A stretch of DNA of 64,000 nucleotides from Candidatus Fermentithermobacillaceae bacterium (GCA_012512325.1 JAAZEL010000069.1:1303-65302), one strand, 5' to 3'. Positions 5,924 to 41,900 are shown, numbered from the stretch's first letter. Program-made: numbers and translations. Notes: generated from the letters alone by a model not told the origin.

Positions 5924-6766
5924 ATGACAGAGACATCTCCAAGTGGGGAGAGAGATATGCCGATAGTTGCAGGAATCAGATTCAAGGAAAAAGGTAAGGT
6001 GTATTACTTCGACCCAGGCGATATACCGCTCAAACTCGGCGACAAGGTGCTGGTGGAGACCGTAAAAGGCATTGAGATGGGAACCGTGGTCATTGAGCCA
6101 AGGGATGTGCCGGAAGAAGATCTGGTTTTGCCGCTTAAGAAGGTGTTGCGTGTAGCCGGCGAAGAAGACCTGGCCGTGGCGAGGCAAAACGAGGAAAAAG
6201 CAAGTGAGGCCATGAAGATAGCAGCGGAAAAAATCGCCCAGCATGGCCTGGAAATGAGGCTGGTGGATGCGGAATACACCTTTGGCGGCTCTCGGGTTGC
6301 CATATATTTCACTGCCGACGGGAGGGTGGATTTCCGTGAACTGGTGAAAGACTTGGCTTCCGCACTGAGAACCAGGGTTGAGCTCAGGCAAATCGGAGTG
6401 CGGGATGAAGCTAAGTTCTACGGGGGCCTGGGCCCCTGCGGCAGGGAATTGTGTTGCGCCAGCTTCTTGTGTGAATTCCAGCCCGTTTCCATCAGGATGG
6501 CCAAGGAGCAGAACCTGCCACTGAATCCTTCAAAGATTTCCGGTACATGCGGCCGTCTTCTGTGCTGTTTGAGATTTGAATCGGAATGCTTGAACGCTGA
6601 AAAAGGCCAAAAGCTACCCATAGAAGCAGGTACGTACGTGATCACCCCTGCAGGTGAGGGCCAAGTTACAGGGTACAATCAGTCCACAGGACTTATCACT
6701 GTGTTGTTGGAAGACGGCACCGAATCCGAGTTCCCTGAAGAAGAAGTTGACGAGAAGAAAGAATGA
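5924..6766 (+). CDS. ricT: PSP1-domain regulatory protein RicT (YaaT)
   Basis: PSP1 C-terminal domain with Cys-rich GPCGRELCCASF...CGRLLCC; conserved position after holB. Confidence 0.8.
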   Translation: MTETSPSGERDMPIVAGIRFKEKGKVYYFDPGDIPLKLGDKVLVETVKGIEMGTVVIEPRDVPEEDLVLPLKKVLRVAGEEDLAVARQNEEKASEAMKIAAEKIAQHGLEMRLVDAEYTFGGSRVAIYFTADGRVDFRELVKDLASALRTRVELRQIGVRDEAKFYGGLGPCGRELCCASFLCEFQPVSIRMAKEQNLPLNPSKISGTCGRLLCCLRFESECLNAEKGQKLPIEAGTYVITPAGEGQVTGYNQSTGLITVLLEDGTESEFPEEEVDEKKE

Positions 6767-32172: not shown

Positions 32173-32871
32173 GTGATGTGGTGCATATGCTGTTGTGACG
32201 CTTACGCCTACCGGAACCACGCCCGGATGAATGAGGTGACTTTCTCTGTGAGGACCCTGGAAGATGAACTGTGGGTGTACTTCGGTTGCCCCAACAGATA
32301 CTGGCGGGACAAGTGCGCAGCTTGCCGGGAAAAGGTCGGGAGACTCAAGGGGCCTGTCGCCGAGTGCATCGATTGTTGGAAGGTTGAAATATGGGGCCAG
32401 AGTCCGTGGCTCCTGGATGCCATGGGCTCTCATGATAGTCCGCGTGGGAGTGCCCACCATGGCAGGTGCAAGAACCACCGCCACCTGCCTCAAAGGGCCG
32501 GCAGTGCATGCATTGAGGAGCTTCTTGGGGAGTCACTGTATCCCGAAGGCATGCCTGTCGGGCTGGGCGTTCTACACCGGTTGGCTTTGCAGCTCGCCCT
32601 GAGACAGGGTTATGCTTTCGTGGCCAAGCTGTCTAAACACCCTTTGCATGTTGTCCGTACGGGGGAGCCTTTGACCCAATATCCGGAGCAGGAAACGGAC
32701 AACCTACTTATGATTTATGCGTCTTCAGTCCCGGAAAGGGACGAGATCCGGCAGGCGGTATGCCATATCCTGGGGTTAGAGCTGCGGCGGGCGGCGGACA
32801 TCCCTGTGCGCCGTGGATGTTGGGTGTATGATCCGATCCTGGGCCCCTGGCAGACCTGGAAGGTAGAATAG
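32173..32871 (+). CDS. hypothetical Cys-rich protein (possible zinc-ribbon N-terminus)
   Basis: 232-aa ORF with GGAGAG RBS. Cys pairs appear in CPNRYWRDKCAAC...CIDC. Not recognised as any family I know; coding status moderate. Confidence 0.4.
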   Translation: MMWCICCCDAYAYRNHARMNEVTFSVRTLEDELWVYFGCPNRYWRDKCAACREKVGRLKGPVAECIDCWKVEIWGQSPWLLDAMGSHDSPRGSAHHGRCKNHRHLPQRAGSACIEELLGESLYPEGMPVGLGVLHRLALQLALRQGYAFVAKLSKHPLHVVRTGEPLTQYPEQETDNLLMIYASSVPERDEIRQAVCHILGLELRRAADIPVRRGCWVYDPILGPWQTWKVE

Positions 32872-36376: not shown

Positions 36377-37033
36377 TCATGAAATAGTGACTTCTTTTGT
36401 CCCGTCCAGTCGCCTGAGTTCATCAAGCAAGGCGTTCTTGTCTGCACCGGGGGGTACCGATACCAGAAACACGACCTCCATAAGGTCTTCATCGGAGCTT
36501 ACCATGTCTATATCCCTTATTTGTACCTTGAACCGACCCATCACATCGGTAACCTTAGCCAGTTGGCCAGGTTTATCCGCAATGGTCATGGCAATGTTGA
36601 CTAACCCCTTCTTCTTGAAGAACAATCGCTCAAGGCGCCTCAATGAAACGAGTGTAACGGAGACCAAGGCAAATGCCACGATACCTCCTGCATAAAGGCC
36701 GGCTCCTATGGCAAGCCCGATACATCCTACAACCCAGAGGCTTGCGGCGGTGGTGAGGCCTTCTATCCTGTGTCCGTCTTTCATTATGGTACCGGCGCCC
36801 AAAAAGCCTATGCCGCTTACTACCGCAGCGCCCAGCCTAGCAGGATCCAGATTGGCGAGGTGATGATATCTCTGGAACAGGGCTTCACTGATCACCATTA
36901 TGAGAGCTGACCCTAAACATACCAGTGTATGCGTCCTAAAGCCTGCCGGCCTGTTCACAAGCTCTCTCTCCAGGCCAATAACCCCACCCAGAAACATGGC
37001 CAAGAGCAGCCTGAGCACTACGCTCCACTCCAT
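36377..37033 (-). CDS. mgtC: MgtC/SapB-family membrane protein
   Basis: MEWSVVLRLLLAMFLGGVIGLERELVNRPAGFRTHTLVCLGSALIM is an MgtC N-terminal signature, followed by a C-terminal ACT-like domain. Confidence 0.85.
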   Translation of the reverse strand: MEWSVVLRLLLAMFLGGVIGLERELVNRPAGFRTHTLVCLGSALIMVISEALFQRYHHLANLDPARLGAAVVSGIGFLGAGTIMKDGHRIEGLTTAASLWVVGCIGLAIGAGLYAGGIVAFALVSVTLVSLRRLERLFFKKKGLVNIAMTIADKPGQLAKVTDVMGRFKVQIRDIDMVSSDEDLMEVVFLVSVPPGADKNALLDELRRLDGTKEVTIS

Positions 37034-37206
37034 ACAAACACCTCCTCATATATGCATGTCTAGCCTATGCAGATGCAGTCTAGTTTGCCAGAGGCAATTC
37101 TGTCAAGGAAAGCCAGGCATCTGCCTAACGTACGACTTGGGGCTCTCGCGTCTAAGACTCTTCAATAAGAAGAGACCCGGAGCTTACAAAGGGCGTGCCG
37201 GGCCAT

Positions 37207-38046
37207 CTATACCCCTTTTACGGCAAGCACCTCTCTGGCAGGGGTCCGGTCTCCGGTGCAGTTTATCATCCTGGGAGCGTCAAGGTATCTAAGACAAAAG
37301 CCCAGGTTCTTGTAGAGCCGGACAATCCGGTTGGTGGCTTGATTGGACAAGACGACCCGACCGGGATGTCTTGCCAGCCACTGAGCAAGCCTTACCTGAT
37401 CCTCCCATGTAAAGCCTTCCTTGGAGTACTGGGTGAACTCAACGTCATAGGGGGGATCGGCATAGATGAAATCGTCAGGTTGGACCGGTATATCCTCGAA
37501 ATCAGTGCAGGTAAATTGCCAGTTCCTGAACAGGGATTGGTAAGGTGAGAAATCCCGGATGTAGTTTATGGTCTTGTAACGCCCGAAGGGGACGTTGAAC
37601 TTACCTTTCTTGTTGAACCTGCAAAGGCCGTTGTAGCCGGTACGGTTGAGATAATAGAACAGCTCTGCCGCTTGTTTGGTGTTGTCAAGACCTTGCTGTA
37701 TGAGTTCATTGAAGCGGTTACGGTGGGAATAATAGAGCTCCTTCTCGTTCCGCATGTCGATTTCGACCTGAAGGCCTTTGGAGACCCAACGGAAGAAATT
37801 GATCAGATGCCGGTTTATGTCGTTGAGCAATGCTGAGTCCGGCATTAGGCCCAAAGTCACGGCCAATCCGCCGCAGAAGGGCTCAACCAGGCGCCTGTGG
37901 GAATGGGGGGTCCAGTATTCCCTCAAGTAGGGGACTAACCACCGTTTGCCGCCTGCCCATTTCAAGGGGGGCTTCAGGGTTGGTTGTACGGTGTTTTGTC
38001 GGGGCAAGATGTCTTGTTGTTTCTTACGTTGCGATGGCGGTACCAC
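37207..38046 (-). CDS. Dam-family (D12-class) DNA N6-adenine methyltransferase
   Basis: LKWAGGKRWL N-terminal motif, FxGxG-type SAM motif EPFCGGLAV and catalytic DPPY (FIYADPPY). No recognisable cognate endonuclease could be confirmed. Confidence 0.85.
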   Translation of the reverse strand: MVPPSQRKKQQDILPRQNTVQPTLKPPLKWAGGKRWLVPYLREYWTPHSHRRLVEPFCGGLAVTLGLMPDSALLNDINRHLINFFRWVSKGLQVEIDMRNEKELYYSHRNRFNELIQQGLDNTKQAAELFYYLNRTGYNGLCRFNKKGKFNVPFGRYKTINYIRDFSPYQSLFRNWQFTCTDFEDIPVQPDDFIYADPPYDVEFTQYSKEGFTWEDQVRLAQWLARHPGRVVLSNQATNRIVRLYKNLGFCLRYLDAPRMINCTGDRTPAREVLAVKGV

Positions 38047-38662
38047 TTACCGTCCTCCCAAGTGAGCTTATGCTATGCACATGTTTCTGCAAGCTTACAG
38101 GGTAATCCTGCGCCTGGCCTTTGTGCGCTGTACCGTTTCCCGGAGCACGTCCTTTTGTGCCAGTGCAGGTTCTTTCAAAGCAGGCACTAGATGAACAAGC
38201 CGGTTGCTTGAGTCTGGTTGCGAGACCTATGAAGCTTCCGGCAACACCGTTGCCTTTGAGTAGACTATCCAATGCTCTGATGCCCCAGGTCATGGGTAAT
38301 ATGTCGGAAAATGCCCGGAGTGAAGCGGGCATGGTGTCCCATGGGATTACAACTCCTGAGAAGAACAAGACCAAGTATTCCAGGATAGATCCAACCCGTT
38401 TCAAAACCATACTCAAAGATGCCATGAAAACTCCGAAGGCGTAAAGGGTGATGACTACTAGGATACCGATGACCAATGCCATTAAGGATACCCTGGGTGA
38501 CGAAAACATATAGCCGAGGTCCGGCTTGAACGCCATGTAAAGCACCGCGCCAACCGCAATGCTCTGGGCAAGAGTAAACACGCAACGCGCGATACTGCGG
38601 GCAGTTAAAACATGCATAAGGTTCTTTGAGCCACAAAACCCGGTTAGTAACCCTCTCGACAA
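38024..38662 (-). pseudogene. ABC-2-type transporter permease fragment (C-terminal ~4 TM helices; N-terminus missing)
   Basis: TM-rich ORF with an ABC-2 permease C-terminal signature (VLYMAFKPDLGYMF...LVLFFSGVVIPWDTMPASLRAFSDILPMTWGIRAL). The expected N-terminal ~50 aa are absent. The upstream ATPase gene survives only as a C-terminal remnant in another frame. Confidence 0.55.
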
Positions 38663-39371
38663 AGCCCATTCTGTGACTGGCCACTATAACGGTTTTTCCC
38701 ATGTCTTTAACCCAGCTCTTTATGGATTCGGTGAGATCTGCAGCGGCAATTACGTCAAGGCACAGGACCCCTAACTCCCAGTCTAGTATTACACGGGTAT
38801 AGGGTTTGTCGTGGTCCTCGCATTCGAACTTGTAGCTGAACTTAAACGGGATCTTCTGCAAGGGCTTCTGGATGTCCCCAAAAAGGTTGAACTGCCTATT
38901 AAGCACTTGCCATTCAGGTTTCCAGTCAGGTTCTGCTTCTTCAACAACATCCAAAACGCGTTTAGGCCTGACGATTCCCAGTGACACTTTCTCAGTTTCA
39001 TAAAGGGTTTCAAGCTGCTTGACGATGTGGACCGGCATCTTGTCGATTATCGCCCGACGGGCACGCCAGTCGCGATCTCGTTTGGTATCAAGCTGTTCTC
39101 CAATGAGTTTGATTGACTCTATGAGCGGCTCACGGCTTTCTTTTCGAGCGTCGCTGGAACGTCCCCTTGGCGCAAGATTGACCTCAATCCACTGATACTT
39201 GCGGAACCGCCGTTCGCGCGGCTGATATCGGTAGGGTATGGGGTAAAGCCGCACCCATTCATAGTCATCAGTGATCCCGGCAGTACATACTAGTTCCTTG
39301 TACTCGCGTGATGGATGAGGATACGTCATGACCGTTATCAATACACGTGTTGCTTGATAATCTGTTCCCAT
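38265..39371 (-). CDS. hypothetical protein of unknown family (~200 aa native part) fused in-frame to an ABC-ATPase C-terminal remnant; true 3' end uncertain
   Basis: Start ATG 39371 with GAGGTG RBS. Residues 1 to ~190 match nothing I recognise. A possible PD-(D/E)xK-like D...ExK appears at VILDWE...TESIK. Residues ~220-250 (DMGKTVIVASHRMGFVERVTNRVLWLKE) look like the tail of an ABC ATP-binding protein. Downstream of 38662 the ORF runs through the permease fragment in another frame, so that part is spurious. Confidence 0.4.
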   Translation of the reverse strand: MGTDYQATRVLITVMTYPHPSREYKELVCTAGITDDYEWVRLYPIPYRYQPRERRFRKYQWIEVNLAPRGRSSDARKESREPLIESIKLIGEQLDTKRDRDWRARRAIIDKMPVHIVKQLETLYETEKVSLGIVRPKRVLDVVEEAEPDWKPEWQVLNRQFNLFGDIQKPLQKIPFKFSYKFECEDHDKPYTRVILDWELGVLCLDVIAAADLTESIKSWVKDMGKTVIVASHRMGFVERVTNRVLWLKEPYACFNCPQYRALRVYSCPEHCGWRGALHGVQAGPRLYVFVTQGILNGIGHRYPSSHHPLRLRSFHGIFEYGFETGWIYPGILGLVLLRSCNPMGHHARFTPGIFRHITHDLGHQSIG

Positions 39372-40248
39372 TTGGCCACCTCAAGTCGCTGACGGTTAAC
39401 CCTGTGCTATCCGAAATAGATTCAGCTAGGACGGACCTATGGTAACGACTTGGATCGACTTCCATACACATGAGCGTTGAAGGCTTCGAACTCATCCACG
39501 ATGCAATATCTCGGACTAAGTCTTCTGCAGAGTTAAGAACCTCCTCTGTGTATCTGTTGAACAGCATGTCGAGATCGTCTTGGTCGTCCAAACATGCTCT
39601 CCATTCGGAAGGGATTCCCACTTGGGGCATATGTCGATATTCGATGTCCACATATTTTGCAAGATTCGCCAGTGTCGATCCGTAGAAACCAAATACCCGC
39701 GATACTGCATTTCTTCTTACGTCTATGAGCTGCTTGATCCCTGACCGTAGCAACAGATTCAAGAATCCATCTACTTGCATGCTCGAATAACCTACGGTGT
39801 ACACGGCATAGGGAGCTTCTTTGAGTGGGATGTAGTGCCTGTTGCGCTCACTTCTCGTTGCATACCAAGGATGTTGCGCATACACTAGTTCGGTCAGTTC
39901 ATTGACGGGATACTGACCATAGTTCGCCCAGAATCTGCCAAACTCCTTCCAAAGATTAGGGGGCAGATCCAATGATGTCTGTAACCCAAGGTCAGTGAGG
40001 CGGATGGCATTCGAGGACGGCAGCTCAATCAGTCCACTATCAATCATTTTCTGGAGTTCGTGATATAGCGTGAAAGAAAAGGGTCCATACTTGTAAGGGA
40101 GAAATTGGTAGAAAGCATGTGTATAGCGTGGACTGAGGTGCTGCCGGAGAAGAAATACTTGCTTGACGAGCTTCAGACGGGTTGTGCTTCCTCCGGAACA
40201 CTTTATTAACGCGATTATCAGCTTTTGTCTTATTAACATTTCAATCAC
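39268..40248 (-). CDS. fusion protein: N-terminal Panacea-like (DUF4065-like, xYGP motif) domain + C-terminal DUF488 domain
   Basis: N-terminus RLKLVKQVFLLRQ...FYQFLPYKYGPFSFTLYHEL resembles the Panacea/SocA/GepA antitoxin-domain motif (KLQKLLYYAQ...AWKYGPV). C-terminus VYTVGYSSMQVDGFLNLLLRSGIKQLIDVRRNAVSRVFGF...IEYRHMPQVGIP matches DUF488 (YTIGHS...LVDVR...SR). Own promoter-like TTGGCC-17-TACAAT; its 3' end overlaps the next gene by 104 nt. Confidence 0.6.
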   Translation of the reverse strand: MIEMLIRQKLIIALIKCSGGSTTRLKLVKQVFLLRQHLSPRYTHAFYQFLPYKYGPFSFTLYHELQKMIDSGLIELPSSNAIRLTDLGLQTSLDLPPNLWKEFGRFWANYGQYPVNELTELVYAQHPWYATRSERNRHYIPLKEAPYAVYTVGYSSMQVDGFLNLLLRSGIKQLIDVRRNAVSRVFGFYGSTLANLAKYVDIEYRHMPQVGIPSEWRACLDDQDDLDMLFNRYTEEVLNSAEDLVRDIASWMSSKPSTLMCMEVDPSRYHRSVLAESISDSTGLTVSDLRWPNGNRLSSNTCIDNGHDVSSSITRVQGTSMYCRDH

Positions 40249-40326
40249 TCTCGGAACTCAGTCCATCAGGTCTTAGTATCTATTTCCATTGTAGAGTTTT
40301 TCCTTGTATGATGGCCAAAAGCATGG

Positions 40327-40824
40327 CTAGATTGATGGTCGTCTCATAATCCCTTGTGAGACTTCAGAAATGGCCTTTATTATGCATGCTTCCCGGTGTC
40401 TAATGAACTGATCGAAATCATCCCGCATCAGAGCTTCGTATGCCTGTTTGTTAATGAAATGGGTTTCAAGCGTTTGTAACAGCCGAGACTCATCATTGTC
40501 ATGCCCTTCCAAGCACTCTTTGAAGAATTCAGATGGTCGTTTGTTCCGCTTGCGGTTATTGGTCTCTTTGGATATGAGTGTTCTGTTTAGAATGATGTCC
40601 ACTTGGTGATCGTGCCTGTATACTTCGCGGGGGAAAATGTGGTCATCCTGGCATGTATGTAGATCTGCCTTTTGCCCCGTTAGGAAGTCGCGGGCTCCTT
40701 TCCGAAGAATCAAGCACATAACACCCTTGTACACAGTAGATCGTCGCTCTGCAGCGGTCAAATCAACAGCATCTACGCTTACGCGGCGGAACCAGTCAGG
40801 TTCAGTACCACTGTGTTTCACCAT
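40327..40824 (-). CDS. DUF1524 (HNH-like nuclease, GmrSD C-terminal) domain protein
   Basis: His-Me finger-like DHIFPREVYRHDH...N...ISKETNNRKRNK. Overlaps the upstream DUF262 ORF by 23 nt in a different frame. Confidence 0.65.
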   Translation of the reverse strand: MVKHSGTEPDWFRRVSVDAVDLTAAERRSTVYKGVMCLILRKGARDFLTGQKADLHTCQDDHIFPREVYRHDHQVDIILNRTLISKETNNRKRNKRPSEFFKECLEGHDNDESRLLQTLETHFINKQAYEALMRDDFDQFIRHREACIIKAISEVSQGIMRRPSI

Positions 40825-41395
40825 CCCATACGTTTTGCTCCTGGTATAGCCACTGGTAGAAGGTGTTTGGTTCTCGAAAGATAGAGAATGGTAAAGCGTG
40901 ATGGGTCCTGACCATCTCTTGAATCTTAGACATTCGCCGCCGGTCGAGCAAAGACACGCCTACAACTGCTTCTTCAATATCTCCGTTTAGAGCCGCGTCC
41001 AGCAAAAGGTAGAATTTGTGAGAGAACTTGGAATTTCTCAGTGGAATGTCAGGGCTGTAGAGGGCGTAAAAGACGGAGGTTATCCGTTGTTGCCCGTCCA
41101 GAACCAGCTGCACTGTTGGGTGGCGATCAAAACGTACCTGTTCGTTGACTTTCTCAAGTCCTTCTATTGGACGAAAGGGAAACATAGGATTATCGGCGTA
41201 AATATCGAGCATTAGAAACGCCCCGATAAAGTAGCCCTGCAGAATAGAGCTCAACAATTCTTGAATATCCCTGCGCTCCCAGATAAAAGAACGCTGAAAT
41301 TCAGGAACCACTACTTTTCCTTCGCAGGCTTCTTCTACGATTGACAAAAGCTTTCTTGGATTGGCCTCGGGGGAGTCCATTTTAGTGAAGCGCAT
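40802..41395 (-). CDS. DUF262 (ParB/Srx-like NTPase, GmrSD N-terminal) domain protein
   Basis: VVPEFQRSFIWERRDIQELLSSILQGYFIGAF and DGQQR motifs; GGAGGG RBS before ATG 41395. Confidence 0.7.
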   Translation of the reverse strand: MRFTKMDSPEANPRKLLSIVEEACEGKVVVPEFQRSFIWERRDIQELLSSILQGYFIGAFLMLDIYADNPMFPFRPIEGLEKVNEQVRFDRHPTVQLVLDGQQRITSVFYALYSPDIPLRNSKFSHKFYLLLDAALNGDIEEAVVGVSLLDRRRMSKIQEMVRTHHALPFSIFREPNTFYQWLYQEQNVWDGETQWY

Positions 41396-41736
41396 CAAAA
41401 ACCCTCCTGCTTAGTTATTGCTCTCGGTCATTATCGCCAGGGCTTTTCACCCCACAAGTCTTTAGTGCGAATTTTCTAAGTTGATGGATTGCGTTGTTGA
41501 TTAATGGATGATTTTTGTGTCGCCCACAGTCTCTAATGGTGCATTCGACGCAGAGCAGCCGTCAACCTCTCCATGGATGCGCTCAGGATATGGCTGTCAC
41601 TCTAGGCGAAGATGCTACATAGGAGGCCTAAAGGAATCTACCTTATGACTCGGAAAAATGGGTACAACGACACAGTTTACTAAGCGGACATCATATGGGT
41701 CAAAACACAAAGGGAAGACTGAGTCAGGTTAGAATA

Positions 41737-41812
41737 TGGTGGGCCATACAGGACTCGAACCTGTAACCCTCCGATTAAGAGTCGGATGCTCTACCAATTG
41801 AGCTAATGGCCC
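41737..41812 (-). tRNA. tRNA-Lys (anticodon CUU)
   Basis: Minus-strand sequence GGGCCATTAGCTCAATTGGTAGAGCATCCGACTCTTAATCGGAGGGTTACAGGTTCGAGTCCTGTATGGCCCACCA. It folds as a cloverleaf with anticodon loop CTCTTAA. Confidence 0.8.
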
Positions 41813-41823
41813 ATGAAAAAGTC

Positions 41824-41900
41824 TGGTAGCGGCGACTGGATTCGAACCAGTGACTCTACGGGTATGAACCGTATGCTCTAACCAACTGAGCTACGCCGCC
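41824..41900 (-). tRNA. tRNA-Met (elongator-type, anticodon CAU; lysidine-tRNA-Ile2 not excluded)
   Basis: Minus-strand GGCGGCGTAGCTCAGTTGGTTAGAGCATACGGTTCATACCCGTAGAGTCACTGGTTCGAATCCAGTCGCCGCTACCA. Anticodon loop TTCATAC. The anticodon stem lacks the three G-C pairs of initiator tRNA. Confidence 0.75.

What the first reader, a model, noticed from the sequence alone, without database searches (positions are those of the whole stretch)
37207..41736. Lower-GC mosaic defence/accessory island abutting the 3' ends of tRNA-Lys and tRNA-Met
Between mgtC and the tRNA pair lie, all on the minus strand: a split GmrSD-like type IV module (DUF262 then DUF1524); a Panacea-like/DUF488 fusion protein; an unknown protein read in-frame into an ABC-ATPase tail; an ABC-2 permease fragment; and a Dam-family m6A methyltransferase. 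By eye, codon usage and GC in 39.3-41.4 kb are clearly more AT-rich than the flanking core genes. The Bacillus-type synteny (yabR then tRNAs then spoIIE) is interrupted here by copA, csoR, mgtC and this island. No integrase, transposase or clear att duplication is visible, so the acquisition mechanism is unclear. The gene combination (Dam methyltransferase with no confirmed endonuclease, a Panacea-DUF488 fusion and an unknown partner) does not match any defence system I can name.
Basis: partly seen in the sequence, partly recalled or inferred. Interest (0 to 1): 0.75.

Follow-up and report, generated by a model that had tools for sequence, protein, structure and literature searches.

The report
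Decayed defence-gene remnant beside tRNA-Lys
A 3.5-kb stretch of foreign, AT-richer DNA next to a tRNA-Lys gene holds the broken remains of two phage-defence modules and an ABC transporter, while the neighbouring Dam methylase is an old resident gene; this is an ordinary decaying defence islet, not a new system.

Summary
For 38180-41732, GC is 47.7% against 54.6±1.05% elsewhere (z −6.6) and the tetranucleotide deviation has z +10.6. The interpretation needs four corrections.

1. Three related Fermentithermobacillaceae MAGs keep copA-csoR-(mgtC)-dam-tRNA-Lys-tRNA-Met-spoIIE. Dam is 82-84% identical and has core-like GC3, so it is a conserved orphan methylase outside the island. Only about 38180-41732 is the variable insert; L011 has 122 bp there.
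2. The "split GmrSD" is one BrxU/GmrSD-like gene with an out-of-frame internal deletion of about 0.64 kb.
3. The Panacea-like/DUF488 protein and its "unknown" partner are PADLOC candidate PDC-M19 (A 2e-67, B 3e-60). This is an untested two-gene cassette found by guilt-by-embedding.
4. PDC-M19B is cut at about residue 204 of about 270 and fused to ABC-ATPase and ABC-2 permease scraps. PDC-M19A carries Tyr at a Cys that is invariant in 47 of 47 homologues.

Two independent assemblies (99.8-99.9% identical) share the junctions they span, so this is not an assembly artefact. No integrase or att repeat is present.

Structure models suggest PDC-M19A is a DarG-C-terminal/Panacea-like domain plus DUF488, and PDC-M19B is a tandem-OB-like protein likely to bind ssDNA. 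Interest is low to moderate.

The parts
38180..41732 (.). Variable, horizontally acquired insert between the conserved dam upstream region and tRNA-Lys. The true right edge may lie between 41399 and about 41630.
   Evidence: DNA homology with L011 runs over 36379-38179 and resumes at 41733; L011 has only 122 bp in between. GC 0.477, z −6.6; tetranucleotide z +10.6. A 27-bp block near 41628-41655 matches the L011 filler at 24 of 27 positions.
40802..41398 (-). 5' part of a GmrSD/BrxU-like gene: DUF262 core with the DGQQR motif, 198 codons, ending at the deletion junction
   Evidence: PF03235 4.9e-18. PADLOC HEC-05 1.5e-18 (profile 25-131 of 600) and PDC-M55C 6e-14. 56% identical to L018 N part residues 4-191.
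40327..40824 (-). 3' part of the same GmrSD/BrxU-like gene: HNH/DUF1524-like end with the DDHIFP motif, in another frame
   Evidence: HEC-05 profile 512-593 of 600. HNH_4 E 0.0023. 51% identical to L018 C part residues 199-350.
40805..40815 (-). Deletion junction J1. About 0.64 kb is missing: the rest of DUF262 (the NIFERINRTG..LS.FDL region) and the linker domain. The deletion also shifts the frame.
   Evidence: Homology to the N part ends at VWDGE, and homology to the C part starts at TEPDW, within about 10 nt. The junction is identical in L008 and L024.
39268..40248 (-). PDC-M19A: DarG-CTD/Panacea-like helical N-terminal domain (about residues 1-135) plus DUF488 (about residues 148-290). 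The tail 295-326 is a read-through over the start of the B gene.
39442..39444 (-). Codon 269 of PDC-M19A: TAC (Tyr) where the family has an invariant Cys (CHRS motif)
   Evidence: 47 of 47 homologues have Cys. The 99.8%-identical contig L008 has TGT (Cys).
38757..39371 (-). PDC-M19B remnant: residues 1 to about 204 of a protein of about 270 residues. It lacks the last helix and two strands that carry the invariant FFMGT..P.N.W motif.
   Evidence: PADLOC PDLC04508 2.7e-60 (3-213 of 269); phrog_25907. Alignment with full-length homologues ends at DWELGVL. After residue 204, the window deviates at 15 of the columns that are at least 90% conserved.
38620..38756 (-). ABC-ATPase scrap (D-loop to H-loop, about 45-50 codons) fused in frame to the PDC-M19B remnant. 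Junction J2 lies at about 38750-38760 and J3 at about 38620-38635.
   Evidence: NCBIfam ECF_ATPase_2 positions 174-222 of 279, E 1.2e-3, with other ABC ATPase models at 3e-4 to 1e-2. PHROG_293 'ABC transporter' 7.6e-6. Three-frame reading.
38266..38611 (-). C-terminal half of an ABC-2 type permease (no N-terminal half), within ORF 38024-38662
   Evidence: PF01061 1.7e-10, profile 95-207 of 211. No paralogue in the window and no close relative in JGI metagenomes.
38047..38179 (-). Conserved dam upstream region; left edge of the insert
   Evidence: It lies within the 77.8%-identical block 36379-38179 shared with L011.
37207..38046 (-). Dam-family m6A methyltransferase. It is a conserved orphan that flanks the insert and is not part of it.
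   Evidence: PF02086 6.7e-44; TIGR00571 200 bits (cut-off 115); best PADLOC model is 'orphan methyltransferase', 5e-77. Orthologues in the same position in L010, L011 and L015 are 82-84% identical. GC3 0.657.
41737..41812 (-). tRNA-Lys(CTT). Its 3' end is the right anchor of the variable slot.
   Evidence: ARAGORN and Rfam, 76 bits. Homology to all relatives starts exactly here.
41824..41900 (-). tRNA-Met(CAT)
   Evidence: ARAGORN and Rfam, 70 bits.

Best explanation
The segment about 38180-41732 is the decaying remnant of a small, horizontally acquired defence islet. It sits in a variable slot between a conserved orphan dam gene and the 3' end of tRNA-Lys.

It once held at least three units:
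- a single-polypeptide GmrSD/BrxU-like modification-dependent nuclease (NTP-binding DUF262, linker, HNH-type DUF1524);
- the two-gene candidate cassette PDC-M19 (A is a Panacea/DarG-CTD-like domain plus DUF488; B is a tandem-OB-like protein of about 270 residues);
- an ABC-ATPase/ABC-2-permease pair.

Three deletions collapsed it:
- J1 removed about 0.64 kb inside the nuclease gene and shifted its frame.
- J2 removed the last quarter of PDC-M19B and about the first 170 codons of the ATPase.
- J3 removed the ATPase 3' end and the permease 5' half.

In this genome PDC-M19A has additionally lost an invariant cysteine (C269Y). No unit is expected to work, and the island is a gene graveyard.

Shown: the boundaries, the family assignments, the truncations, the shared junctions in independent assemblies and the conservation of dam.

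Inferred: the original gene content, the order of events and the loss of function.

Proposal for intact PDC-M19 (inference, low confidence): B binds single-stranded DNA through its OB folds. A restrains or complements it through its DarG-CTD-like domain, which may act as an ssDNA mimic, with DUF488 as the enzymatic domain. This would be a DarTG-like toxin-antitoxin or abortive-infection arrangement.
For: Synteny and empty site: L010, L011 and L015 keep copA-csoR-(mgtC)-dam-filler-tRNA-Lys-tRNA-Met-spoIIE-tilS-ftsH. The fillers are 122 to about 860 bp and are not homologous to one another.

Composition: GC z −6.6 and tetranucleotide z +10.6 for the insert; dam is core-like.

GmrSD deletion: ORF6 residues 7-194 match L018 N-part residues 4-191, and ORF5 residues 7-158 match L018 C-part residues 199-350. 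Longer homologues continue past the ORF6 stop with the conserved NIFERINRTG..LS.FDL segment, which is absent here. Other short homologues are independent breakages: a frameshift, an IS insertion and a contig end.

PDC-M19: PADLOC hits at 2.2e-67 and 2.7e-60. The A-B adjacency is conserved in five unrelated contexts, including between hsdM and hsdS. B homologues are uniformly about 255-290 residues and match the profile to positions 255-261. The window copy stops matching at about 204. A has C269Y.

ABC scraps.

Reality of the junctions: L008 and L024.

Against: - No intact ancestor of this island was found, so deletion sizes rest on homologues that are only 51-56% identical. The best comparator, L018, is itself frameshifted.
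- PDC-M19A and the chimeric ORF 38265-39371 remain long open reading frames. The first OB domain of B is intact, so residual or new activity cannot be excluded.
- The effect of C269Y is inferred from conservation only.
- The related genomes are distant (SpoIIE 54-74% identical), so gain in this lineage cannot be dated and is not formally separated from differential loss.
- The ABC-ATPase assignment rests on weak E-values.
Confidence: 0.78

Rival explanations
1. The island is still functional in reduced form. PDC-M19A, alone or with the chimeric B-ABC protein, and/or the two GmrSD halves act as a minimal or new defence or toxin-antitoxin module.
For: A is a complete ORF that deviates at only 2 of the 55 columns conserved in at least 90% of homologues. 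ORF 38265-39371 is open for 368 codons and keeps the first OB domain. The DGQQR and DDHIFP motifs survive in the two GmrSD pieces. The same state is seen in three assemblies.
Against: One of A's two deviations is the invariant Cys269. B lacks about 65 C-terminal residues containing 10 or more invariant positions, and among the 150 best of 2405 family representatives no full-length member ends there. The GmrSD linker and half of DUF262 are gone and the frames differ. In BrxU-type enzymes both domains act within one intertwined dimeric polypeptide (bioRxiv 10.1101/2024.01.29.577857). L008 has five further indels inside the B remnant.
Confidence: 0.1
2. The segment is ancestral to the family and was lost from the relatives. 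It would then be a case of differential deletion and not an insertion.
For: All four species have different, non-homologous fillers in the slot. L010 carries a possible HNH-like remnant there (31% identity to ORF5, pairwise E 5e-8). A 27-bp block next to tRNA-Lys is shared with L011.
Against: The segment is the strongest compositional outlier in 64 kb, while the flanking genes, including dam, are host-like. The L010 remnant is on the opposite strand and is a different gene with no Pfam or PADLOC hit. The module families are mobile and occur in unrelated phyla, plasmids and phages.
Confidence: 0.07
3. Dam together with the island genes forms one restriction-modification-like system, with Dam as the protective methylase and a neighbouring nuclease as its partner.
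For: Physical adjacency and same strand. Dam-family methylases serve in some type II R-M systems and match PADLOC MTase_II models.
Against: Dam is conserved at this position in three species that lack the island, with no nuclease beside it. The best PADLOC model is 'orphan methyltransferase'. Its composition differs from the insert. GATC is not strongly avoided (observed/expected 0.81, within the range of other 4-mer palindromes). By family knowledge, GmrSD-type enzymes attack modified DNA and are not partnered with a methylase.
Confidence: 0.03
4. The mosaic is a mis-assembly or chimeric MAG contig.
For: The source is a metagenome-assembled genome, and abrupt junctions between unrelated gene fragments can come from chimeric assembly.
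Against: Two independent assemblies from other samples reproduce the region at 99.8-99.9% identity. L008 spans all three junctions and both flanks, and L024 spans J1.
Confidence: 0.02

Closest known systems
PADLOC phage-defence candidate PDC-M19 (cassette CAS_00089, FAM_02799>>FAM_02993; Payne et al., bioRxiv 10.1101/2024.01.29.577857)
   Same: The A and B proteins match the PDC-M19A and PDC-M19B models at 2e-67 and 3e-60. They are adjacent, on the same strand and overlapping, as in other genomes, including a copy embedded between hsdM and hsdS.
   Different: B is truncated at about profile position 213 of 269 and fused to ABC scraps. A carries C269Y. The cassette is not embedded in an R-M system here. 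PDC-M19 itself is an untested candidate.
GmrSD / BrxU (PADLOC HEC-05; also PDC-M55C) type IV modification-dependent nucleases
   Same: A DUF262 N-terminus with DGQQR and a C-terminal HNH-type motif DDHIFP (BrxU has DHIYP). These genes often sit in or near other defence systems.
   Different: The second half of DUF262 and the whole linker domain (about 200 residues) are deleted, and the two parts are in different frames. It is only distantly related to BrxU itself; the PADLOC mREase_IV model gives E 0.007.
DarTG and PanAT toxin-antitoxin systems (DarG C-terminal domain / DUF4065 Panacea)
   Different: The Pfam Panacea score is below the gathering threshold (15.1 against 25.7 bits). The fused domain is DUF488, not a macrodomain, and it is C-terminal. 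The partner is an OB-fold protein, not an ADP-ribosyltransferase or any known PanT toxin. Neither toxicity nor neutralisation has been shown.
Orphan Dam-family methyltransferases
   Same: D12-class m6A methyltransferase above the TIGR00571 cut-off, with no adjacent endonuclease and a conserved position across species.
   Different: It is not an equivalog of E. coli Dam (119 bits against a cut-off of 441). Its target sequence is untested.
tRNA-flanking genomic islands and defence hot spots
   Same: Foreign composition, a position exactly at a tRNA 3' end, and different content in each related species.
   Different: No integrase, no direct repeat of the tRNA 3' end and no mobility genes. The segment is very small (3.5 kb) and fully degenerate.

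Membership tests
PDC-M19 (PADLOC candidate) | Protein matching the PDC-M19A model over its full length | tested here: met
   PDLC04505 2.2e-67, residues 4-284 against profile 1-287 of 294
PDC-M19 (PADLOC candidate) | Protein matching the PDC-M19B model over its full length | tested here: not met
   PDLC04508 2.7e-60, but only profile 3-213 of 269. Alignment with full-length homologues ends at residue about 204.
PDC-M19 (PADLOC candidate) | A and B adjacent on one strand, in the order A then B | tested here: met
   A is 40248-39268 and B starts at 39371 on the minus strand. The same order is seen in L001, L003, L004-7 and L009.
PDC-M19 (PADLOC candidate) | Anti-phage activity | not testable with these tools
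   The source paper lists the PDC systems as untested candidates.
GmrSD/BrxU-like type IV nuclease | DUF262 domain with the DGQQR nucleotide-hydrolysis motif | tested here: inconclusive
   PF03235 4.9e-18 and LDGQQRITS are present, but only profile positions 7-78 of 199 are matched and the distal DUF262 segment is deleted.
GmrSD/BrxU-like type IV nuclease | Single polypeptide with a large linker joining DUF262 to DUF1524 | tested here: not met
   There are two ORFs in different frames, and about 200 residues are missing relative to L018. The single-polypeptide architecture is described.
GmrSD/BrxU-like type IV nuclease | C-terminal HNH-type (D/E)H(I)xP nuclease motif | tested here: met
   DDHIFP in ORF 40327-40824; HEC-05 profile 512-593 of 600; HNH_4 E 0.0023, below the Pfam cut-off.
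PanAT (Panacea/DUF4065 antitoxin systems) | Pfam PF13274 match at the gathering threshold | tested here: not met
   15.1 bits against a cut-off of 25.7, E 0.045. One homologue, P0084, has a precomputed PF13274 hit.
PanAT (Panacea/DUF4065 antitoxin systems) | Panacea / DarG-CTD-like fold | tested here: met
PanAT (Panacea/DUF4065 antitoxin systems) | Toxic partner neutralised by the Panacea protein | not testable with these tools
The partner B has no similarity to known toxins.
Dam-family orphan methyltransferase | D12-class MTase domain above curated thresholds | tested here: met
   PF02086 150.9 bits (cut-off 22); TIGR00571 200.1 bits (cut-off 114.85)
Dam-family orphan methyltransferase | No cognate endonuclease beside it; position conserved across species | tested here: met
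   The order mgtC (or csoR in L010)-dam-filler-tRNA-Lys holds in L010, L011 and L015, with 82-84% identity.
Dam-family orphan methyltransferase | GATC m6A methylation | not testable with these tools
   This needs methylome data. GATC observed/expected is 0.81 and is uninformative.
tRNA-integrated mobile island | Integrase or recombinase gene | tested here: not met
   No such domain in any ORF of 37-42 kb
tRNA-integrated mobile island | Direct repeat of the tRNA 3' end at the distal border | tested here: not met
   No repeat of at least 14 nt links 41737-41812 with the left border.
tRNA-integrated mobile island | Atypical composition and absence from related genomes | tested here: met
ABC transporter (ATPase + ABC-2 permease) | Complete nucleotide-binding domain (Walker A, signature, Walker B) and a complete permease | tested here: not met
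   Only ATPase profile positions of about 174-222 of 279 and permease positions 95-207 of 211 remain.

The most novel reading that the evidence does not exclude
The most novel reading concerns intact PDC-M19, of which this locus preserves a naturally disarmed copy. It would be a DarTG-like, ssDNA-centred toxin-antitoxin or abortive-infection module. In this reading a tandem-OB protein (B) acts on or senses single-stranded DNA. It is held in check by the DarG-CTD/Panacea-like, possibly ssDNA-mimicking, domain of A. The uncharacterised DUF488 domain supplies a reversing or effector enzymatic activity. The loss of the B C-terminus followed by C269Y in A would then be the classic order of decay: toxin first, then the no-longer-needed antitoxin.
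Probability: 0.15. Interest if true: 0.6.

Novelty: new member of a known kind. Interest (0 to 1): 0.25.

Why it matters
For this genome the result is mostly annotation hygiene. The region should be annotated as pseudogenes plus a conserved orphan Dam, not as a novel defence combination. The slot downstream of tRNA-Lys is a small turnover hot spot in Fermentithermobacillaceae.

The wider value is modest. It gives a first structural sketch of PADLOC candidate PDC-M19:
- A is a Panacea/DarG-CTD-like domain plus DUF488.
- B is a tandem-OB-like protein family with no Pfam model and high conservation. It has 2405 representatives at 50% clustering, and the closest ones are about 60% identical across phyla.
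- The B-DUF488 linkage also holds on conjugative plasmids.
- B sits next to the immunity repressor in Gordonia phages.

These observations give concrete, testable hypotheses for an untested candidate system and for the function of DUF488. They should be tested on intact copies from other genomes, not on this locus.

Tried and rejected
- att-like direct or inverted repeats in 30-43 kb: only short chance matches.
- Rfam on the whole window: only the three tRNAs.
- Sequence searches of PDC-M19 A and B profiles against PDB chains: nothing meaningful.
- My first inference was an internal GmrSD deletion of about 230 residues, based on HEC-05 profile coordinates. I questioned it when the closest DUF262 homologues turned out to be only 198-346 residues long, which could have meant a natural short or split architecture. 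I rejected that reading. The longer hits continue with canonical DUF262 sequence that is absent here, and the short ones are independent breakages: an L018 frameshift, an L027 IS insertion and an L025 contig end.
- Search for the source of the ABC scraps: no paralogue in the window and no close relative in JGI metagenome contigs.
- The Gordonia phage 'immunity repressor' upstream of the B homologue is not an A homologue.
- The L010 filler ORF gave no Pfam or PADLOC hit. Only a pairwise similarity to the HNH region links it to ORF5, so I treat it as a possible remnant only.
- Literature searches for DUF488 function and for 'PDC-M19' in main texts found nothing informative. One apparent hit was DUF4886, a word-start artefact.
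- The exact-sequence look-up of the source protein P0001 returned nothing.
- The palindrome array seen in L010 is absent from the window.

Full report
**1. What is in the sequence**

On the minus strand between mgtC (36377-37033) and tRNA-Lys(CTT) (41737-41812), followed by tRNA-Met(CAT) (41824-41900), there are six ORFs.

- 37207-38046 is a Dam-family methyltransferase. PF02086 gives 6.7e-44. TIGR00571 gives 200 bits against a cut-off of 115. The best PADLOC model is 'orphan methyltransferase' at 5e-77.
- 38024-38662 matches only positions 95-207 of 211 of the ABC-2 permease profile.
- 38265-39371 has no Pfam hit.
- 39268-40248 has a DUF488 domain (7.8e-21).
- 40327-40824 has a weak HNH match.
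- 40802-41398 is a DUF262/GmrSD_N protein (4.9e-18).

A conserved N-terminal part runs in frame into LDVIAAADLTESIKSWVKDMGKTVIVASHRMGFVERV. This is an ABC-ATPase D-loop/H-loop segment (NCBIfam ABC ATPase models 3e-4 to 1e-2; PHROG 'ABC transporter' 7.6e-6). It then continues out of frame over the permease fragment.

**2. The composition anomaly is real, but it does not include dam**

The segment 38180-41732 has GC 0.477. Equal-sized windows elsewhere in the 64 kb average 0.546±0.0105 (534 windows). None is as low (z −6.6). Its tetranucleotide distance from the rest is 0.307 against 0.154±0.0145, with 0 of 214 windows reaching it (z +10.6).

GC3 of the insert ORFs is 0.49-0.55. Dam has GC 0.524 and GC3 0.657, like copA, tilS and ftsH.

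**3. The empty site, and what is core**

I used SpoIIE as the query against one genome per species and recovered six related loci. Three Fermentithermobacillaceae/Bacillota MAGs (L010, L011, L015) show the order yabQ-yabP-S1 protein-tRNA-Leu-orf-copA-csoR-(mgtC)-dam-filler-tRNA-Lys-tRNA-Met-spoIIE-tilS-ftsH.

| Protein | Identity to the window |
|---|---|
| Dam | 82-84% |
| CopA | 79-82% |
| TilS | 78-83% |
| SpoIIE | 65-74% |

So copA-csoR-mgtC-dam is family-level synteny and not a recent interruption. Dam is a conserved orphan methylase.

DNA homology with L011 runs continuously over 36379-38179 and resumes at 41733. L011 has only 122 bp in between. The variable insert is therefore about 38180-41732 (3553 bp).

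A 27-bp block near 41628-41655 matches the L011 filler at 24 of 27 positions. This suggests the last 110-165 bp may be old tRNA flank.

The fillers of L010 (about 820 bp), L015 (about 550 bp) and L014 are not homologous to one another. L010 holds, on the opposite strand, a possible HNH-like remnant. It is 31% identical to ORF 40327-40824 (pairwise E 5e-8) but has no Pfam or PADLOC hit. The slot behaves as a small turnover hot spot.

No integrase, transposase or att repeat is present.

**4. It is not an assembly artefact**

Contig L008 (ENA ERZ2648049, 4698 bp) is 99.8% identical over 37088-41791 and carries all junctions. L024 (JGI 3300049647, 1571 bp) is 99.87% identical without gaps over 39836-41406.

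**5. The 'split GmrSD' is one gene with an internal deletion**

PADLOC places ORF 40802-41398 at positions 25-131 and ORF 40327-40824 at positions 512-593 of the 600-position HEC-05 (BrxU-like) model.

The best comparator is a GmrSD-like gene of about 558 codons in a defence island (L018), which is itself frameshifted. It aligns to the window as follows:
- L018 residues 4-191 match ORF6 residues 7-194 (56% identity).
- L018 second-part residues 199-350 match ORF5 residues 7-158 (51% identity).

Longer homologues continue past the ORF6 stop with the conserved FMVPV...NIFERINRTG..LS.FDL segment, which is missing here. The two homology blocks meet within about 10 nt at 40805-40815.

This amounts to an out-of-frame deletion of about 0.64 kb. 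It removed the distal DUF262 segment and the linker. The DGQQR and DDHIFP motifs survive.

According to the literature read, GmrSD was first mis-described as two genes and is typically a single polypeptide with a large linker. BrxU function also depends on dimerisation of that polypeptide (bioRxiv 10.1101/2024.01.29.577857).

I considered a natural short or split architecture because the closest homologues are 198-346 residues long. I rejected it because these are independent breakages: a frameshift in L018, a DDE_5 IS insertion in L027 and a contig end in L025.

**6. The DUF488 fusion and its 'unknown' partner are PADLOC candidate PDC-M19**

ORF 39268-40248 matches PDC-M19A (2.2e-67, 1-287 of 294). 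Residues 7-215 of ORF 38265-39371 match PDC-M19B (2.7e-60, profile 3-213 of 269). Both also have PHROG families.

PDC-M19 is cassette CAS_00089 (FAM_02799>>FAM_02993) in the supplement of Payne et al. It is one of 145 untested candidates predicted by 'guilt-by-embedding' in BREX, DISARM and type I R-M systems.

The A-then-B pair recurs in unrelated contexts:
- among purine-biosynthesis genes (L001);
- between hsdM and hsdS (L003);
- next to a type IIG-like R-M system with an extra stand-alone DUF488 gene (L004-7);
- on a biogas contig (L009).

B is a large family with no Pfam model. The indexed search found at least 1351 clusters, the closest about 60-65% identical across phyla. The exhaustive search of 50%-identity representatives found 2405 with E ≤ 1e-3. 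Almost all are about 255-290 residues long and match the profile to positions 255-261.

**7. PDC-M19 is broken here**

Alignment with full-length B proteins shows that homology ends at DWELGVL (residue about 204, window about 38756). The last 65 or so residues, which carry the invariant FFMGT..P.N.W motif, are replaced by the ABC scrap.

A is complete. Its tail (residues 295-326) is a low-confidence read-through over the B start, which close relatives also have. However, A has Tyr at position 269, where 47 of 47 homologues have Cys in a C-H-R-S motif. The 99.8%-identical contig L008 still has Cys there (TGT against TAC).

L008 in turn has five small deletions, all inside the B remnant. These are either low-coverage errors or further decay.

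**8. The ABC scraps**

About 45-50 codons of an ATPase remain (profile positions about 174-222 of 279), together with the C-terminal half of an ABC-2 permease. They have no paralogue in the window and no close relative in JGI metagenomes. Two more deletion junctions are implied, at about 38750-38760 and about 38620-38635.

**9. What intact PDC-M19 may do (inference)**

The AlphaFold2 model of A has pLDDT 88 and pTM 0.86. It shows a helical, winged-helix-containing N-terminal domain (about residues 1-135) and an α/β DUF488 domain.

A 2026 paper states that DUF4065 (Panacea) proteins are homologous to the DarG C-terminal helical antitoxin domain. It cites Deep et al. 2023, whose title describes ssDNA mimicry by that domain (PMC13621843). 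Panacea antitoxins neutralise many unrelated toxins, usually with the antitoxin gene first (PMC8832971).

The B-DUF488 linkage also holds where DUF488 is a stand-alone 160-230-residue protein convergent with B. This is seen on Burkholderia, Streptomyces and Rhizobium plasmids.

In Gordonia phages a B homologue (PADLOC 2.5e-48) follows an HTH 'immunity repressor' near the integrase, without DUF488. On Sulfolobales plasmids it follows a ParB-like gene.

My working model has low confidence. B binds ssDNA. The DarG-CTD-like domain of A restrains it, possibly as an ssDNA mimic. DUF488 is the enzymatic partner. A rival reading is an ssDNA-handling or establishment module of mobile elements, not a defence system.

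**10. Verdict**

The region is a 3.5-kb, compositionally foreign, fully degenerate remnant of known or candidate defence modules plus transporter scraps. It lies in a variable slot beside tRNA-Lys and next to a conserved orphan Dam.

It is a new (broken) member of known kinds. Interest is low to moderate and comes mainly from the side observations on PDC-M19.

Noticed in passing
window 39442-39444 (codon 269 of ORF 39268-40248): PDC-M19A has Tyr (TAC) at a position that is Cys in 47 of 47 homologues (CHRS motif of DUF488). The 99.8%-identical contig L008 has TGT (Cys). This is a two-base change at a likely catalytic residue.
   Followed up: partly
L008 2461-2775 (window 39012-39324): All five small deletions (6 nt in total) that distinguish the low-coverage contig L008 from the window fall inside the PDC-M19B remnant, and none falls elsewhere in 4.7 kb. 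They are either assembly errors or further decay of the pseudogene in another population.
   Followed up: no
L010 9150-9700 (sister-species MAG, between tRNA-Met and spoIIE): There are about 9-10 copies, spaced about 55-60 bp apart, of a roughly 24-bp palindrome, AAATGGTGCAC-N4-GTGCACCATT. It looks like an array of protein-binding sites or a small repeat element. It is absent from the window (0 matches with up to 3 mismatches).
   Followed up: partly
L010 8252-8850: The slot between dam and tRNA-Lys in the sister species holds plus-strand ORFs with an HHLFP...N..LI...N motif. They are 31% identical to the HNH region of window ORF 40327-40824 (pairwise E 5e-8) but have no Pfam or PADLOC hit. 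This may be an independent nuclease remnant in the same hot spot.
   Followed up: partly
proteins P0242-P0260; loci L018 6001-7681, L027 4001-7698, L025 4001-4597: None of the 49 closest homologues of the DUF262 part is full length (maximum 346 residues), and many stop at 198-220 residues. The cases inspected are independent disruptions: a frameshift, a DDE_5 IS insertion and a contig end. This GmrSD-like subfamily seems to be found broken unusually often.
   Followed up: partly
L019 3027-4831 (Gordonia phage Eviarto gp44-gp43; also BatStarr, TimTam, Nymphadora, Herod): A full-length PDC-M19B homologue (PADLOC 2.5e-48) lies directly downstream of the annotated immunity repressor, an HTH protein without DUF488, and close to the integrase. 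This is the region where temperate actinophages often carry prophage defence genes.
   Followed up: partly
L020 5001-6264, L021 3001-4487, L022 3001-4307 (Burkholderia pYS1, Streptomyces canus and Rhizobium leguminosarum plasmids): On plasmids the B homologue is paired convergently with a stand-alone DUF488 protein of 160-230 residues that lacks the Panacea-like domain. It lies near KfrA, integrase or toprim genes. The B-DUF488 link is therefore independent of the fusion.
   Followed up: partly
L004-L007 7352-7909 / 5943-6500: An extra stand-alone DUF488 gene (185 residues) sits directly upstream of PDC-M19A in Poribacteria-like contigs. It lies next to a type IIG-like R-M system and an AAA/DUF8371 gene.
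   Followed up: no
L023 1933-3858 (Saccharolobus shibatae plasmid pBEU9E1): An archaeal B homologue follows a ParB/RepB/Spo0J-family gene. A recent paper reports that archaeal ParB-CTPase-fold proteins fused to DUF488-HTH bind CTP (bioRxiv 10.1101/2025.10.10.680097). I did not check whether this ParB-like protein contains DUF488.
   Followed up: no
L014 7457-9799: A more distant relative has about 2.3 kb inserted between tRNA-Met and spoIIE, encoding a 235-residue membrane protein and a 112-residue ORF. This is a second variable position around the tRNA pair.
   Followed up: no
window 32173-32871: A 232-residue ORF between tRNA-Leu and copA has no Pfam hit but is conserved at 52-62% identity in the same position in L010, L011 and L015.
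   Followed up: no
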